In this document: positions 8,999 through 24,570 of the stretch, piece after piece
How the letters are laid out: each line of letters starts with the position of its first letter
Position numbering within the stretch: position 1 is the stretch's first letter
IMG/VR virus record: IMGVR_UViG_3300049491_000083
Coordinates: 1-64,000 of that record
Origin: a virus
Strand: one strand, 5' to 3'
DNA length: 64,000 nt
The notes under the pieces: generated by a model
The model's input: the letters and a program-made list of their open reading frames with translations, nothing else
What the model was told of the DNA's origin: nothing
Database searches by the model: none
Translations under genes and position numbers: made by a program

Positions 8999-9027
8999 TT
9001 GACAACTACATAGCACTACAGTATCAT
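8999..9027 (+). promoter_or_regulatory. Promoter of the Y-RNA array/Ro60 operon
   Basis: TTGACA-17 bp-TATCAT; predicted start ~9033-9034 coincides with unit 1. Confidence 0.75.
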
Positions 9028-9033
9028 TGAACT

Positions 9034-9106
9034 TAAGCGAGTCGGATTGAATGGGTTATCCTACATATGAGTAAAATATATCCCATCCATAAAGCATATT
9101 CGCTTA
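9034..9106 (+). ncRNA. Y-RNA-like unit 1 (minimal cargo)
   Basis: TAAGCGAGT pairs with ATTCGCTTA; GTCGGATTG; ATGGG/CCCAT inner stem; TTATC. Confidence 0.7.
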
Positions 9107-9114
9107 CAGACTTT

Positions 9115-9252
9115 TGAACGAGTCGATTGTCAACGATAATCTATGGAGAAGCAGGCCAATAGTTCAAAAAGCGCCTGCACAGCACAGTTACACAACCGGG
9201 TAGTTAGCCAACAAAAGGCCAGCCCGTTCGTTGCCTGCAACATATTCGTTCA
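9115..9252 (+). ncRNA. Y-RNA-like unit 2
   Basis: TGAACGAGT/ATTCGTTCA; CAACGA/TCGTTG inner stem; two cargo hairpins. Confidence 0.7.
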
Positions 9253-9261
9253 CAAAACTTA

Positions 9262-9362
9262 ATATGGGTCGAATAGGATCACGGTTATCGCGGTAAGCAG
9301 GGCCAACAAATTCCTGCCTCAGGGTTCAATTCCCTACCCGTTCCTAACTTATACATCCATAT
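9262..9362 (+). ncRNA. Y-RNA-like unit 3 (T-arm cargo)
   Basis: ATATGGGT/ATCCATAT; ACGG/CCGT; AGGG-TTCAATT-CCCT T-arm. Confidence 0.7.
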
Positions 9363-9367
9363 CAGAC

Positions 9368-9475
9368 TTGACGAGCCGGATTGTTTCGGTTATCATTGCC
9401 AAAATTAATGAGGCAAGGTTCGATTCCTTCCTGTACGGGGTGGCCCCCATCCGATTCACAAAGCATGTTCGTCAA
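9368..9475 (+). ncRNA. Y-RNA-like unit 4 (T-arm cargo)
   Basis: TTGACGAGC/GTTCGTCAA (compensatory C-G); TCGG/CCGA; AAGG-TTCGATT-CCTT. Confidence 0.7.
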
Positions 9476-9481
9476 CACAAC

Positions 9482-9619
9482 TTAATACGAGTCGAATTGA
9501 AGTCGATTATCCAATTCAAATGGGGTTATATCGGTTCGAATCCGGTCCCGTCCACCATGGGCGGGTAGTTTAATGGCAAAACACCTAAAATTCGATTTCT
9601 ACTAATATATTCGTGTTAA
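9482..9619 (+). ncRNA. YrlA-like Y RNA, unit 5 (circularly permuted tRNA cargo)
   Basis: TTAATACGAGT/ATTCGTGTTAA; T arm, then acceptor stem closed by ACCAT, then D arm; immediately upstream of Ro60. Confidence 0.85.
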
Positions 9620-9653
9620 CTACAATGCCCCACAGGGGCCGAAAGGAAAGAAA

Positions 9654-11255
9654 ATGTCTACTGCACTAAAGAATGTTTCATTCAAGAACACACAGCAGAC
9701 CGTTCAGGCACGTCCTGATCAGGTTAAGAACTCTGCTGGTGGGTACGTATTCCAGACCGCAGACAAGGATCGCCTAGAGCGCTTCCTGATCATCGGTACT
9801 GACGGCGGTACCTACTACGCATCTGAGTCAAAGATCACCAACGACAACACCAAGTTTATCGTTGAACTGATCCGTTGTAATGAGGATCTTGTTCGGGATA
9901 CCCTTGTTGACGTGTCGGTCAATGGTCGTGCGTACAAGAATTCCCCTGCACTCTTCACCCTTGCCCTGCTTTTCGTAGAGGGCACCAACAAGGCTGCCGC
10001 AAAGGATGCTTTGCAGAAGGTTGCTAGGACTTCAACACATCTTTTTGAGTTCGCTCAGTACATTGAGAACCTTGGTGGCTGGGGACGCGCAAAGCGTTCT
10101 GCCGTTGCCGAGTGGTACACGTCTAAGGAAACTGACAATCTGGCCTACCAGTTCGTCAAGTACCGTCAGCGTGACGGCTGGACTCACCGCGACCTTATGC
10201 GACTGTCTCACCCCGTTGGTATCGAAGCCAACACCGCCAACTTTGCCCTAGGCAAGGATCACGGTATTGCGCCTCGTATCATTAGCGGATTTGAGATTGT
10301 CCAGCAGGCTGAGAATGTCCAGCAGGTTCTCAACGCCCTGTCGTCTTTCAAGGATCTGCCATGGGAAGCAATTCCTACCCAGTTCCTTAAGGACCCCAAG
10401 GTGTGGAAGGCCCTGTTCTACAACGATCAGTTGAAGGGTCAGGCCCTTATCCGTAACATCGTCAGGCTCTCACGCAACGGTGCTTTCAATGACCTTGCGT
10501 TTGCGGCTGACTACGCAGCACGCCTTACCGATGTAGAAATGATCCGTAAGACTCGTCTGCACCCCGTTAACTACCTTAACGCTCTTGTGACATACACAGA
10601 GGGTCAGGTACCACGGGACGGTTGGGGCACTGGTTGGGGATACCGGATTTCCCGCAAGATCGATTGGACCCCTCGTGGGCCTCTCGTGGATGCGCTGAAC
10701 GAAGGCTTCCACCAGTCATTCAAGTTCGTAGAGCCTGCTAACAAGCGGACACTCCTAGGAGTTGACGTGTCAGGTTCTATGGCATCAGCAGCAATGGGCA
10801 CCGACCTGTCGTGTGCACAGGTGGCTGGCGCTATGGCAATGACCATTGCCCGAACTGAGCCTGCCTACGAGATTCGTGGATTCGCGGGTACATTTGTTGA
10901 TCTTGGCATCACCGCCAAGACGGGTCTGTCTGATGCAATGAACAAGGTCCAGAGGGCCAACTTCGGAACTACAGACTGCTCGCTGCCTATGCAGTACGCA
11001 CTTCAAAACAAGTTGGAGATTGATACGTTCGTGGTGATCACGGACAACGAGACTTACGCAGGTAGGCCTCATCCGTATCAGGCTCTTAAGAACTACCGTG
11101 ACAGGACTGGCATCGACGCACGGCTTGCCGTGCTTGGTGTTGCCTCAAACGGGTTCACTATCGCTGATCCCAAGGATCGTGGTATGATGGACTTTGTTGG
11201 ATTTGACAGCAATGCACCCAAGGTGCTTGCAGACTTCTCCGCAGGTAGGCTATAA
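9654..11255 (+). CDS. rsr: Ro60/Rsr TROVE-domain RNA-binding protein
   Basis: NSAGGYVF...RLERFLIIGTDGGTYY, KYRQRDGWTHRDLMRLSH, vWA MIDAS DVSGSM and TDNET. Confidence 0.95.
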   Translation: MSTALKNVSFKNTQQTVQARPDQVKNSAGGYVFQTADKDRLERFLIIGTDGGTYYASESKITNDNTKFIVELIRCNEDLVRDTLVDVSVNGRAYKNSPALFTLALLFVEGTNKAAAKDALQKVARTSTHLFEFAQYIENLGGWGRAKRSAVAEWYTSKETDNLAYQFVKYRQRDGWTHRDLMRLSHPVGIEANTANFALGKDHGIAPRIISGFEIVQQAENVQQVLNALSSFKDLPWEAIPTQFLKDPKVWKALFYNDQLKGQALIRNIVRLSRNGAFNDLAFAADYAARLTDVEMIRKTRLHPVNYLNALVTYTEGQVPRDGWGTGWGYRISRKIDWTPRGPLVDALNEGFHQSFKFVEPANKRTLLGVDVSGSMASAAMGTDLSCAQVAGAMAMTIARTEPAYEIRGFAGTFVDLGITAKTGLSDAMNKVQRANFGTTDCSLPMQYALQNKLEIDTFVVITDNETYAGRPHPYQALKNYRDRTGIDARLAVLGVASNGFTIADPKDRGMMDFVGFDSNAPKVLADFSAGRL

Positions 11256-15118: not shown

Positions 15119-15420
15119 GGGGATGAAAGGTTTCGACCTTGCGGGAAGGTATCAGCAGTACCACAACACAACAATAAATGCAAACACACAAACCGCATTC
15201 GCCCTAGCAGCATGAGGGCCGTGGGGCCACTCCATAGGAACAGAAAGTGGCATGGAAAGATATCCTTTGCATTAATGTAAAGGGTAAGTTACACCGTCGG
15301 GGATATCCCCCGCAAACGCAACAAACACAAATAGTATGACCGTTGGTTGTGCTTTTTGTGGCTACAAAGACGCTGATATTGGAAGGCAATGGGACCGGGG
15401 TTCGATTCCCCGCATCTCCA
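15119..15420 (+). ncRNA. ssrA: tmRNA; tag ANTQTAFALAA
   Basis: GGGGATGAAAGGTTTCGAC 5' end; GGGGTTCGATTCCCCGCATCTCCA 3' end with G3:U; resume codon GCA at 15180 after AAATAAAT; TGA at 15213-15215. Confidence 0.95.
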
Positions 15421-15437
15421 CAACGAAAGGATAGGCA

Positions 15438-16259
15438 ATGTTCACTACATTCACGAGGGATCGCGCAGGCTTTGCTGGTGACTGGCACGGCAATACCGGC
15501 TGGGCACTCCATTGCCTTGACGTATTCAAGTCTCACGATATCTATACAATCTATCAGGTTGGTGACTTCGGGGTATGGGGTGGTAATGATGGTGCCTCGT
15601 ACCTGCGTAAGATCAATACCAGATTGAACATGAACAATCAGGATTTGATCGTCGTACCCGGCAATCACGAGAACTACGATATGCTTGACAAGTTCCCGAT
15701 CAATGAAGATGGATTCATGCAGCGCCCTGACCTTGACCGCATTCAGTTTGCTCCCCGTGGGCATGTGTGGCATCACAATAGCGCTCGCTTTGCTGCCATG
15801 GGCGGTGCTTTCAGCATCGACAAGAACATGCGCACAGAGGGACGGTCATGGTGGCCTCAGGAGGCCATTACGCCTGAGGACGTAGAGGCTCTCAAGCGCA
15901 ATCTTGACAAGCGTCTATGGCTCAGCGTGGACGTGTTCCTGAGCCACGATATTCCTGCCGGGGTAGATGTAGGACACAAGGCCTTCGGCCTGCCTGCTGA
16001 ATTGGAGTATGAGGCAAATCGCCAGCGTGTACTGCTTCGCCATGCTGTTGACTATGCGCGTCCGCGAACGCTTGTCCATGGACATTGGCACAAGCGCATT
16101 CGTCAGATCCTTATAGGCGACTCGCACACAGACGATTCCTATACGACTCAGATCTATGGCCTTGATATGGACGTGACGCAGGATAATATGATCGTGGCAG
16201 ACGTGGCCCCGTTCATCGGACTGTACAATGTTCAAGTAATCACAGGAGAGCCAGAATGA
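15438..16259 (+). CDS. Calcineurin-like metallophosphoesterase
   Basis: GDWHG, GDFG, GNHE, SHD and HGHWH motifs. Confidence 0.9.
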   Translation: MFTTFTRDRAGFAGDWHGNTGWALHCLDVFKSHDIYTIYQVGDFGVWGGNDGASYLRKINTRLNMNNQDLIVVPGNHENYDMLDKFPINEDGFMQRPDLDRIQFAPRGHVWHHNSARFAAMGGAFSIDKNMRTEGRSWWPQEAITPEDVEALKRNLDKRLWLSVDVFLSHDIPAGVDVGHKAFGLPAELEYEANRQRVLLRHAVDYARPRTLVHGHWHKRIRQILIGDSHTDDSYTTQIYGLDMDVTQDNMIVADVAPFIGLYNVQVITGEPE

Positions 16260-21757: not shown

Positions 21758-21832
21758 GCACTCTTGGTGTAACGGTAGCACAGCGGATTCCAAACCCGCT
21801 AGGTGTGGGTTCGAATCCTACGGAGTGTGCCA
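21758..21832 (+). tRNA. tRNA-Trp(CCA)
   Basis: Loop TTCCAAA; encoded CCA. Confidence 0.9.
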
Positions 21833-21833
21833 T

Positions 21834-21906
21834 GGTCCTATAGAGCAGCGGAGTGCTCGTCACCCTGTCACGGTGAAGGTCACGGGTTCGAATCCCGTTA
21901 GGATCG
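21834..21906 (+). tRNA. tRNA-Asp(GTC)
   Basis: TCACC-CTGTCAC-GGTGA. Confidence 0.93.
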
Positions 21907-22203: not shown

Positions 22204-22277
22204 GCCTCTGTAGTTTAATGGCAAAACAACTGTTTAGTAATCAGTTGACGAGGGTTCGATTCCTTCTAGAGGCTCCA
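22204..22277 (+). tRNA. tRNA-Thr(AGT)
   Basis: Loop TTAGTAA; GCC/GGC acceptor, U73; encoded CCA. Confidence 0.88.
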
Positions 22278-22431: not shown

Positions 22432-22506
22432 GGGGGTGTAGTAGTAACGGTAACACAACTGTCTTGCACACAGTTATTCGGGGTTCGAATCCCCGCACTT
22501 CCACCA
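22432..22506 (+). tRNA. tRNA-Ala(TGC)
   Basis: ACTGT-CTTGCAC-ACAGT; G3:U70; CCA. Confidence 0.92.
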
Positions 22507-22507
22507 C

Positions 22508-22579
22508 GGGATTGAAGCATTAATGGTGATGCTCTAGACTCTTAATCTTGAGATGAAGGTTCAAGTCCTTCCAGTCCCA
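22508..22579 (+). tRNA. tRNA-Lys(CTT)
   Basis: Loop CTCTTAA. Confidence 0.88.
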
Positions 22580-24111: not shown

Positions 24112-24570
24112 ATGAACACCGCTTTTATCGTTGATATGGATGGGACGCTCGCTGACGTGCGTACCATTCGTCATCATGTTCGGCAACGTCCGAAGAACTT
24201 CGATGCCTTCCATGCTGAATCAGTCAATGTTCCTCCGCATGATCATGTAGTTGAACAGGTACGTCAGGCCAAGGCTGATGGTCACGATATCATTATCGTT
24301 ACCGCTCGCAATGCCAAGTGGCGTAACCATACTGCCATGTGGCTTGCCCTGCACGACATTCCCAATGATGCCCTGTTCATGCGTAAGAACAAGGATCAGC
24401 GGGTAGATGTTGAGGTCAAGCGTGACATTCTCAATGTAATCCGAGAGTCTTGGACTGTTGTCCATGCCATTGATGACAACCCTTCGATCATCGAACTCTG
24501 GGAATCCGAGGGTATCCCGACTACTCACGTAGAAGGTTGGGAAGTGGGTATTGACAGCAACACCCGCTGA
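24112..24570 (+). CDS. HAD-family phosphatase, T4 PNKP 3'-phosphatase-like (no kinase domain)
   Basis: DMDGTLAD, VTAR, LFMR...D...K, IDDNP motifs. Confidence 0.85.
   Translation: MNTAFIVDMDGTLADVRTIRHHVRQRPKNFDAFHAESVNVPPHDHVVEQVRQAKADGHDIIIVTARNAKWRNHTAMWLALHDIPNDALFMRKNKDQRVDVEVKRDILNVIRESWTVVHAIDDNPSIIELWESEGIPTTHVEGWEVGIDSNTR

What the first reader, a model, noticed from the sequence alone, without database searches (positions are those of the whole stretch)
9522..9586. Unit 5 holds a circularly permuted tRNA that keeps ACCA and full alanine identity (G3:U70)
Seen, in order: T arm ATCGG-TTCGAAT-CCGGT (9530-9546), 3' acceptor strand CCCGTCC, then A-CCA (9554-9557), one T, 5' acceptor strand GGGCGGG, TA, D arm GTTT-AATGGCA-AAAC. 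The anticodon arm is replaced by the Ro handle. Pairing gives G1-C72, G2-C71, G3:U70 and A73. The 19-mer GTAGTTTAATGGCAAAACA is identical to 22210-22228 of this phage's tRNA-Thr, and the CCA-T-G junction matches the Trp/Asp tRNA junction at 21830-21834. Established: YrlA has this permuted topology with a closed acceptor loop; G3:U70/A73 specify AlaRS; permuted two-piece tmRNAs are matured by cutting such a loop. Inference: (i) a snapshot of YrlA arising from a head-to-tail tRNA junction; (ii) an RNase P cut before G9559 plus trimming would give a two-piece Y RNA that can be alanylated.
Basis: partly seen in the sequence, partly recalled or inferred. Interest (0 to 1): 0.85.

Follow-up and report, generated by a model that had tools for sequence, protein, structure and literature searches.

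The report
Alanine-marked Y RNA beside phage Ro60
Just upstream of a phage's Ro60 gene lies a known type of small partner RNA (a back-to-front tRNA look-alike) whose sealed end looks exactly like a joint between two tRNA genes and carries the mark read by the alanine-loading enzyme, so it is probably cut open and may be loaded with alanine, which nobody has shown for such RNAs.

Summary
Unit 5 (about 9487-9622) is a YrlA-class Y RNA 30 nt upstream of a Ro60 gene (TROVE and Ro60 vWA domains). It has a two-tier closing stem with an unpaired CGAA motif, a T arm, a 7-bp acceptor hairpin and a D arm.

The hairpin loop reads A73-CCA-U before G1. This is the same "CCA, one base, next tRNA" joint found six times in this phage's tRNA cluster. 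G1-C72, G2-C71, G3:U70 and A73 otherwise occur here only in tRNA-Ala and the tmRNA.

Across 16 orthologues, mostly from Streptomyces phages, all three arms covary, G3:U70 is kept in 15, and pairs 4-6 change. ACCA is not kept there: the loops read ACUCUU, like CCA-less tRNA trailers. ACCAU does recur in the window's closer relatives, mostly without the G:U.

Both inferences have published precedent. M. smegmatis YrlA is cut by RNase P and receives CCA (Chen 2014). A dimeric-tRNA origin is an existing model, and the "snapshot" reading is not supported. Conserved alanine identity is the new part.

I found no RNA data, so cutting and charging remain untested. This scan has noted alanine-marked Y RNAs on other DNA before.

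The parts
8999..9027 (+). Promoter-like site (TTGACA, 17 nt, TATCAT) ahead of the Y-RNA array
   Evidence: 11 of 12 consensus matches. This is a consensus match only.
9034..9480 (+). Y-RNA-like units 1-4 of the array (context). Units 3 and 4 have T arms only.
   Evidence: The family model R1 matches unit 1 (9037-9111, 27 bits) and unit 4 (9371-9480, 33 bits).
9487..9622 (+). Unit 5, the whole YrlA-class Y RNA
   Evidence: R1 gives 112 bits over the full model. The window was one of the 14 training rows, so this score is partly by construction. Rfam YrlA matches 9500-9601 at 30.9 bits.
9488..9492 (+). Outer closing stem, 5' strand. It pairs with 9609-9613. The unpaired conserved CGAA(U) motif follows at 9493-9497 (the Ro60-binding motif of YrlA RNAs).
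   Evidence: RNAalifold consensus on A2. GNCGAA motif as described by Chen 2014.
9497..9506 (+). Inner closing stem, 5' strand (the anticodon-stem equivalent). It pairs with 9592-9601.
9530..9546 (+). T arm (5 bp, loop TTCGAAT)
   Evidence: 3 of its 5 pairs covary.
9547..9553 (+). Acceptor 3' strand (positions 66-72), with U70 at 9551
9554..9558 (+). Loop: A73, C74, C75, A76, then U(-1). The predicted RNase P cut is between 9558 and 9559. The predicted mature 3' end is 9557.
   Evidence: The same CCA, one base, +1 format occurs at six tRNA-tRNA joints in this window. The cut itself is inferred, not shown.
9559..9565 (+). Acceptor 5' strand (positions 1-7), with G3 at 9561
9566..9582 (+). U8-A9 and the D arm (GTTT / AATGGCA / AAAC)
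   Evidence: Identical to the D arms of tRNA-Thr(agt) and tRNA-Lys(ttt).
9592..9613 (+). 3' strands of the inner stem (9592-9601) and outer stem (9609-9613)
9654..11255 (+). Ro60 orthologue (533 aa)
   Evidence: Pfam TROVE 2.6e-34 and vWA_Ro60 2.8e-61. 62-64% identical to the Ro proteins of Streptomyces phages.
22432..22506 (+). tRNA-Ala, a comparator. It is the only tRNA in the window with G3:U70, and it has an encoded ACCA.
15119..15423 (+). One-piece tmRNA, a comparator. It has G1-C72, G2-C71, G3:U70 and A73.

Best explanation
Unit 5 is a YrlA-class Y RNA, the partner RNA of the phage Ro60 encoded 30 nt downstream. It is made as part of a five-unit precursor.

Its tRNA-like module has a T arm stacked on a 7-bp acceptor helix, plus a D arm. 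The hairpin loop A-CCA-U|G has the same format as this phage's tRNA-tRNA joints. I therefore expect the host tRNA-maturation enzymes to treat it as a pre-tRNA joint:
1. RNase P cuts before G9559.
2. A 3' exonuclease removes U9558.
3. The result is a two-piece RNA of about 70 nt and at least 55 nt. The pieces are held together by the acceptor helix, the two closing stems and the D/T-loop contact.
4. It ends in a free ACCA-3'OH on a helix bearing G1-C72, G2-C71, G3:U70 and A73.

Such a helix is a textbook substrate for alanyl-tRNA synthetase, so the Ro60-bound RNA is probably alanylated. Charging could protect the new 3' end or let the particle engage tRNA-binding factors.

Shown here: the structure, the family, the conservation, and the likeness to tRNA joints. 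Inferred: cleavage, trimming, charging and any downstream role.
For: 1. Y RNA identity.
- Ro60 gene with TROVE and vWA_Ro60 domains.
- Best Rfam hit is YrlA.
- RNAalifold on 14 relatives gives an outer stem, unpaired CGAA, an inner stem, and T, acceptor and D arms. 20 of 31 pairs show compensatory change.
- The family model finds 170 such units, all on the Ro strand (+); those examined lie upstream of Ro genes, a few downstream.

2. Precedent. M. smegmatis YrlA, the one studied YrlA with a 7-bp acceptor, is cut by RNase P in vivo and in vitro, trimmed, and given CCA. The authors raised possible aminoacylation (Chen 2014).

3. The loop looks like a tRNA joint.
- Trp/Asp, Thr/Asn, Gln/Ala, Ala/Lys, Lys/Val and Val/Arg all read CCA, one base, next tRNA.
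- ACCA is the commonest loop start among 37 distinct 7-bp hairpins in Ro loci, seen 10 times.
- ACCAU recurs in L192, L216, L257 (twice) and L020/L025/L249.
- In Streptomyces phages the loops read A-CUCUU or A-CUCAU, like the CCA-less trailers A-CUCU and A-CUCA of this window's Tyr/Glu and Met/Phe joints.
- YrlAs that look built to stay closed instead carry UUCG-type or GNRA-like tetraloops or long extensions (Sparky, Cali, L035, L041).

4. Alanine identity.
- It is unique to tRNA-Ala and the tmRNA among the window's RNAs.
- In 16 orthologues, 3:70 is G:U in 15. Pairs 1:72, 2:71 and 7:66 and A73 never vary. Pairs 4:69, 5:68 and 6:67 change on both sides.
- Eight distinct stems keep 5'-GGG...UCC-A, including BRock, which belongs to a different genus and has a different D arm.
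- G(5')-U(3') occurs at position 3 in 8 of 37 distinct stems, against 0-2 at each other position.
- L192 combines G3:U70 with ACCAU, as the window does.

5. That AlaRS charges acceptor minihelices on G3:U70 alone is established knowledge (Hou and Schimmel 1988; Francklyn and Schimmel 1989; from memory).
Against: - There is no RNA evidence of any kind, so cleavage and charging are pure inference.
- G3:U70 is not universal. One near-identical contig has G3:C70 (L006 = L102). L005 (its Ro 64% identical to the window's) and Limpid/Blueeyedbeauty have other stems, and Annadreamy lost the module.
- The window's closest Ro relatives (71-73%: L216, L257, L184) have non-alanine stems at the Ro-proximal unit.
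- The 15 of 16 count rests on few independent lineages.
- U70, C71, C72, A73 and CCA could simply be inherited from a tRNA-Ala 3' half. L190's 3' strand equals that of this phage's tRNA-Ala.
- A 5-nt loop cannot offer RNase P a free leader and a free RCCA at once.
- The Rfam score is below the gathering threshold.
Confidence: 0.4

Rival explanations
1. The RNA is opened but not charged. RNase P and trimming open the hairpin as in M. smegmatis YrlA, but the CCA end serves only to stabilise or mature the RNA. The G3:U70 pair is either a relic of a tRNA-Ala ancestor or is read by some other factor.
For: The M. smegmatis precedent stops at CCA addition. Many ACCAU-loop modules in relatives have no alanine mark (L216, L257, L020). 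So opening does not depend on G:U.
Against: It leaves unexplained why a weak G:U pair stays fixed at 3:70 while pairs 4-6 covary. It also does not explain why G:U is enriched only at position 3. A free ACCA on a G3:U70 helix would be hard for AlaRS to ignore (established knowledge).
Confidence: 0.2
2. The RNA is an ordinary closed-loop YrlA. The hairpin stays sealed, and A9554-U9558 may add an eighth pair around a CCA triloop. The module works as an uncut tRNA-shaped effector domain of the Ro60 particle. ACCA and G:U are then inherited leftovers.
For: - Most studied YrlAs are not cut.
- The minimum-free-energy fold closes 8 bp with a CCA loop.
- The G3:C70 and non-alanine variants in close relatives suggest the mark is dispensable.
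Against: - The acceptor is exactly 7 bp, which Chen 2014 name as the feature that makes M. smegmatis YrlA an RNase P substrate.
- The loops mimic tRNA joints rather than stable tetraloops.
- ACCA is enriched.
Confidence: 0.3
3. This is not a Y RNA at all, but a decayed joint between two tRNA genes, that is, pseudo-tRNA debris in a tRNA-rich phage.
For: - True tRNA joints give weak YrlA and R1 hits.
- The Ala/Lys joint at 22476-22520 is 6 of 7 self-complementary.
- The D arm equals those of two tRNAs.
Against: - The two acceptor strands pair perfectly and covary across genera.
- Closing stems with the CGAA motif are conserved.
- The position next to Ro60 is conserved.
- Of 118 T-arm-to-D-arm pattern matches in viral contigs, 103 were non-complementary true joints, unlike this one.
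Confidence: 0.03
4. The RNA is a decoy. The alanine-type end, cut or uncut, titrates or redirects a host factor that reads tRNA-Ala or tmRNA acceptor ends, such as AlaRS, SmpB with EF-Tu, or an anti-phage tRNA nuclease, rather than being charged productively.
For: It has the same identity set as tRNA-Ala and the tmRNA. Phages commonly carry tRNA mimics. This is inference only.
Against: No specific evidence supports it. No partner gene was found in the window.
Confidence: 0.05

Closest known systems
Mycobacterium smegmatis YrlA (Chen et al. 2014, RNA 20:1715, PMC4201824)
   Same: - A Y RNA encoded upstream of Ro60/rsr and processed from a multi-Y-RNA precursor.
- A permuted tRNA-like module with a 7-bp acceptor hairpin.
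- That RNA is cut by RNase P at the tRNA +1 position, trimmed, and ends in CCA, giving two Ro-bound pieces. This is the fate proposed here.
   Different: There the CA is added after transcription, whereas here ACCA is encoded. Alanine identity has not been reported for it, and I could not retrieve its sequence to check. Aminoacylation was only mentioned as a possibility.
Salmonella Typhimurium YrlA / Rfam RF02553 (structure: Wang et al. 2018, 10.1101/312249)
   Same: The same order of parts: handle, T arm, acceptor hairpin, D arm, handle. The same CGAA handle motif and the same gene neighbourhood.
   Different: Salmonella YrlA has a 6-bp acceptor and is not cut. The window's RNA scores only 30.9 bits against the gathering score of 69.
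Two-piece (circularly permuted) tmRNA, Rfam RF04321
   Same: The gene order is T arm, 3' acceptor strand, CCA, spacer, 5' acceptor strand. It has G3:U70 alanine identity and matures by opening the spacer.
   Different: Only a local 17.8-bit match covers the acceptor/T region. There is no tag reading frame and no pseudoknots. The spacer is 1 nt rather than tens of nt. The phage has its own normal one-piece tmRNA at 15119-15423.
Thermus phage phiLo Ro60 with Yrl1/Yrl2 (PMC12135203)
   Same: A phage-encoded Ro60 with Y-RNA-like genes directly upstream. Binding was shown in vitro.
   Different: Those RNAs are described as stem-bulge-stem with CGAA. The paper mentions no tRNA-like module, acceptor or CCA.
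tRNA-Ala and AlaRS minihelix substrates
   Same: G1-C72, G2-C71, G3:U70, A73 and CCA on a 7-bp helix stacked on a T arm.
   Different: There is no anticodon arm. The 3' end is not free until the loop is cut.

Membership tests
YrlA-class Y RNA (Rfam RF02553) | Encoded next to a Ro60/Rsr (TROVE) gene, on the same strand | tested here: met
   Unit 5 ends about 30 nt before the Ro60 ORF at 9654-11255, which has TROVE and vWA_Ro60 domains.
YrlA-class Y RNA (Rfam RF02553) | The 5' and 3' ends pair into a stem carrying the conserved GNCGAA motif on the 5' strand | tested here: met
   Outer stem 9488-9492/9609-9613 and inner stem 9497-9506/9592-9601. G-U-C-G-A-A lies at 9491-9496. Both stems covary in 14 relatives.
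YrlA-class Y RNA (Rfam RF02553) | T arm 5' of D arm, with an acceptor-like stem-loop between them (permuted tRNA) | tested here: met
YrlA-class Y RNA (Rfam RF02553) | Score at or above the Rfam gathering threshold | tested here: not met
   30.9 bits against 69 (E 1.2e-4 over 751 nt). It is the best hit in the window.
YrlA-class Y RNA (Rfam RF02553) | Bound by Ro60 | not testable with these tools
   Needs co-immunoprecipitation or a gel-shift assay.
RNase P-opened, CCA-ended YrlA (M. smegmatis type) | Seven-base-pair acceptor helix stacked on a 5-bp T stem | tested here: met
   7 of 7 pairs plus 5 of 5 pairs.
RNase P-opened, CCA-ended YrlA (M. smegmatis type) | Cleavage at +1 and a CCA 3' end in vivo | not testable with these tools
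   No RNA data are available (see Tried and rejected). CCA is encoded here.
AlaRS substrates (tRNA-Ala, tmRNA) | G3:U70 wobble pair, with A73, G1-C72 and G2-C71 | tested here: met
   Kept in 15 of 16 orthologues.
AlaRS substrates (tRNA-Ala, tmRNA) | Free single-stranded ACCA-3'OH | not testable with these tools
   It exists only if the loop is cut between 9558 and 9559 and U9558 is removed.
Two-piece tmRNA (RF04321) | Tag reading frame, pseudoknots and a long excised spacer | tested here: not met
   Only a 38-nt local match at 17.8 bits (gathering score 47). The unit has no room for a tag frame.
tRNA (RF00005) | Cloverleaf in the native order with an anticodon arm | tested here: not met
   Neither ARAGORN nor Rfam tRNA calls it.

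The most novel reading that the evidence does not exclude
A family of actinophage Y RNAs is cut open by RNase P and charged with alanine by the host AlaRS. This would make Ro60-bound Y RNAs a third class of natural alanine acceptors, after tRNA-Ala and tmRNA. It could link the Ro60 RNA-surveillance particle to EF-Tu or the ribosome.
Probability: 0.35. Interest if true: 0.8.

Novelty: new variant of a known kind. Interest (0 to 1): 0.6.

Why it matters
What the tRNA-like half of bacterial and phage Y RNAs does has been an open question since 2014. The authors of the only cleaved example could only speculate about aminoacylation.

A conserved alanine identity set, sitting on a hairpin that looks like a tRNA joint, turns that speculation into a specific prediction. 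It can be tested cheaply in cultured Streptomyces phages (Gilson, Kenrey, Comrade, BRock) by end mapping, acid-gel Northern blots, and AlaRS assays with a G:C control.

If the prediction holds, Ro60 particles would carry an aminoacyl group, which points to contacts with translation factors. If it fails, the mark is a fossil of tRNA-Ala ancestry, and that still informs how Y RNAs arose from tRNA joints.

These RNAs are also being mis-annotated as tRNAs in deposited phage genomes.

Tried and rejected
- RNA evidence. The look-up of sequencing runs listed no RNA holder. Laying contigs of 4 runs gave only DNA-type contigs and no ends or joints. One cDNA-labelled wastewater contig covers 9278-9415 only and is probably DNA. 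This gives no evidence either way on expression or cleavage.
- M. smegmatis YrlA sequence. Two primer-derived patterns from Chen 2014 found nothing or only random hits in genome contigs. I could not check whether the experimentally cleaved YrlA has G3:U70. The paper's supplements are not held.
- Pattern scan of viral contigs for a T loop followed by this D arm. 103 of 118 matches were true tRNA-tRNA joints, so it was of little use for counting.
- Thermodynamics. The z-score of the single-sequence fold is only -0.98. A two-piece cofold gave 17 intermolecular pairs but a different local fold. I did not rely on either.
- Phage-encoded helpers. I scanned 21 of the longer ORFs (of 42 listed at ≥130 or ≥170 aa) with Pfam for a CCA-adding enzyme, an AlaRS or AlaX domain, or an RNA ligase. 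None was found. Only a PNKP-type phosphatase domain (24112-24570) and a metallophosphatase (15438-16259) turned up.
- 'Snapshot of origin' from the 19-mer. I rejected this because the same D arm occurs in the Y RNA but in no tRNA of Kenrey or Gilson, and because two tRNAs in this window share it.

Full report
**What is there**

The window is part of a 76-kb uncultured phage record. It carries 32 tRNA genes, a tmRNA and a Ro60 orthologue at 9654-11255. Ro60 has the TROVE domain (2.6e-34) and the Ro60 vWA domain (2.8e-61). It is 62-64% identical to the Ro proteins of Streptomyces phages of the Gilsonvirus group.

Between a promoter-like site at 8999-9027 and the Ro60 start lie five tandem Y-RNA-like units. 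The finding concerns the last one.

- T arm 9530-9546
- CCCGTCC 9547-9553
- A9554
- CCA 9555-9557
- T9558
- GGGCGGG 9559-9565
- TA
- D arm 9568-9582

The pairing gives G1-C72, G2-C71, G3:U70, four Watson-Crick pairs, and A73.

**It is a Y RNA of the YrlA class**

- Rfam's best match in the region, and in the whole record, is YrlA at 9500-9601 (30.9 bits, E 1.2e-4). This is well under the gathering score of 69.
- The single-sequence fold gives the T arm, acceptor hairpin, D arm and closing stem.
- I fetched Ro60 loci from viral contigs (43 loci), metagenomes (79 loci) and cultured phages.
- An alignment of 14 related units gives an RNAalifold consensus with an outer stem (window 9488-9492 with 9609-9613), an unpaired conserved CGAA motif, an inner stem (9497-9506 with 9592-9601), and the T, acceptor and D arms. 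20 of 31 pairs show compensatory changes.
- On 16 orthologues of the tRNA-like core, 99% of cells pair and 9 of 16 pairs change on both sides. None of 500 shuffles, and no slid register, comes close.
- A covariance model of the family finds 170 units in 100 sources, all on the Ro strand (+); those examined lie upstream of Ro genes, a few downstream. They include the window's units 1 and 4.

The RNA is therefore real, conserved and Ro60-linked.

**What is known already**

- Chen et al. 2014 (PMC4201824) showed that M. smegmatis YrlA is cut by RNase P in vivo and in vitro at the tRNA +1 site. It is then nibbled and given CCA, and it remains Ro-bound as two pieces. It is the only studied YrlA with a 7-bp acceptor. 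They noted that it "could potentially be aminoacylated".
- Wang et al. 2018 (10.1101/312249) describe YrlAs as circularly permuted tRNAs. They cite the Sim and Wolin model that YrlA arose from dimeric tRNA transcripts.
- I found no paper that mentions alanine identity in a Y RNA.

**The loop looks like a tRNA joint**

- In this phage's tRNA cluster, six joints read N73-CCA, one base, then the next tRNA: Trp/Asp, Thr/Asn, Gln/Ala, Ala/Lys, Lys/Val and Val/Arg. Unit 5's loop A-CCA-U|G has exactly this format.
- Among 37 distinct perfect 7-bp hairpins that follow a T arm in Ro loci, ACCA is the commonest loop start, seen 10 times.
- ACCAU recurs in L192, L216, L257 (twice) and L020/L025/L249. Trina has ACCA as well.
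- In Streptomyces phages, whose tRNA genes examined in the Kenrey locus lack an encoded CCA, the loops are A-CUCUU or A-CUCAU. These resemble the CCA-less trailers of this window's Tyr/Glu and Met/Phe joints.
- YrlAs that look designed to stay closed carry UUCG-type or GNRA-like tetraloops or long extensions: Sparky, L035, L041 and mycobacteriophage Cali.
- From the 7-bp stem and the M. smegmatis precedent, I infer that RNase P cuts before G9559 and that one U is trimmed. This leaves a two-piece RNA with a genuine ACCA end.

**The alanine mark**

- In the window, G3:U70 occurs only in tRNA-Ala (1 of 31 tRNAs) and the tmRNA.
- In the 16 orthologues, 3:70 is G:U in 15. Pairs 1:72, 2:71 and 7:66 and A73 are invariant. 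Pairs 4:69, 5:68 and 6:67 change on both sides.
- Eight distinct stems keep 5'-GGG...UCC-A while positions 4-7 vary: GGGCGGG, GGGCCUG, GGGACUG, GGGACCG, GGGCCGG, GGGAGUG, GGGGGAG and GGGUAGA. The group includes BRock, from another genus and with a different D arm.
- G-U in this orientation is found at position 3 in 8 of 37 stems, and 0-2 times at each other position.
- L192 carries both G3:U70 and ACCAU, as the window does.
- This pattern is what selection on the AlaRS identity set would produce.

**Caveats**

- The lineages are few and related.
- One contig has G3:C70 (L006). L005 and Limpid/Blueeyedbeauty have other stems, and Annadreamy lost the module.
- The window's closest Ro relatives (L216, L257, L184) have non-alanine Ro-proximal units.
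- Descent from a tRNA-Ala 3' half could also explain the mark. L190's 3' strand equals that of this phage's tRNA-Ala. The window's own tRNA-Ala/tRNA-Lys joint is 6 of 7 self-complementary, with G3:U70.

**The 'snapshot' idea**

- The 19-mer identity with tRNA-Thr is real. However, tRNA-Lys(ttt) has the same D arm.
- In Kenrey and Gilson that D arm occurs only in the Y RNA.
- The module is thus an old family feature, not a fresh product of a joint.

**Verdict**

The object is a YrlA-class Y RNA of a sub-type whose acceptor hairpin mimics a tRNA joint and which carries the alanine identity set.

| Claim | My estimate |
|---|---|
| It is a Y RNA | about 0.95 |
| It is opened by RNase P | about 0.6 |
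| It is alanylated | about 0.35-0.4 |

No RNA data could be found.

Earlier notes of this scan report alanine-marked Y RNAs on other DNA. My own counts agree with their rough frequency of about a quarter. I treat those notes as leads only.

Noticed in passing
window 22476-22520 (model match 22457-22539): The natural joint between tRNA-Ala and tRNA-Lys(ctt) reads CACTTCC-ACCA-C-GGGATTG. That is 6 of 7 self-complementary, including a G3:U70-type pair. It scores 39.9 bits against the Y-RNA family model. It is therefore one substitution away from an alanine-type closed acceptor hairpin, which illustrates how such modules could arise.
   Followed up: partly
L191:3385-3460: A stand-alone permuted tRNA-like module: T arm, TCTATCC-ACTCTT-GGGTAGA with G3:U70 and A73, and a D arm, closed by a short stem. 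It has its own promoter-like site and lies about 800 nt downstream of a Ro60 gene, just before tRNA-Ile(tat). There is no obvious Ro handle.
   Followed up: partly
L170:171-243 (Blueeyedbeauty), L173:160-221 (Sham), L271:1176-1384 (Trina): Deposited phage annotations call parts of these Y RNAs tRNA-His(gtg), tRNA-Ser(cga) and a pseudo 'tRNA-OTHER'. These are mis-annotations of Y-RNA units.
   Followed up: partly
window 9037-9111, 9371-9480 and 9368-9396: Units 1 and 4 of the array match the family model at 27 and 33 bits. A second promoter-like site (TTGACG, 17 nt, TATCAT) lies at the start of unit 4.
   Followed up: no
window 9278-9415: One 165-nt contig from a wastewater library labelled RNA-Seq cDNA covers units 3-4 at 95-99% identity, with adapter letters at both ends. 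It is probably DNA and was not interpreted.
   Followed up: no
window 24112-24570 and 15438-16259: An ORF with a polynucleotide kinase-phosphatase (PNKP) HAD phosphatase domain, and a calcineurin-like phosphoesterase ORF directly after the tmRNA. Both may be RNA-end-healing functions in a tRNA-rich phage.
   Followed up: no
L272:1151 (Sparky), L270:1243 (Cali): Mycobacteriophage Y RNAs use other acceptor designs. Sparky has 7 bp closed by a UUCG tetraloop. Cali has a 6-bp stem extended by a further hairpin. This contrasts with the tRNA-joint-type loops of the window's family.
   Followed up: partly
sequencing run X1, second contig on window 9531-9579: The sample that may be the window's source holds a second 151-nt contig matching the tRNA-like core with 8 differences and different flanks. 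A related Y-RNA unit from another phage is present in the same sediment.
   Followed up: no
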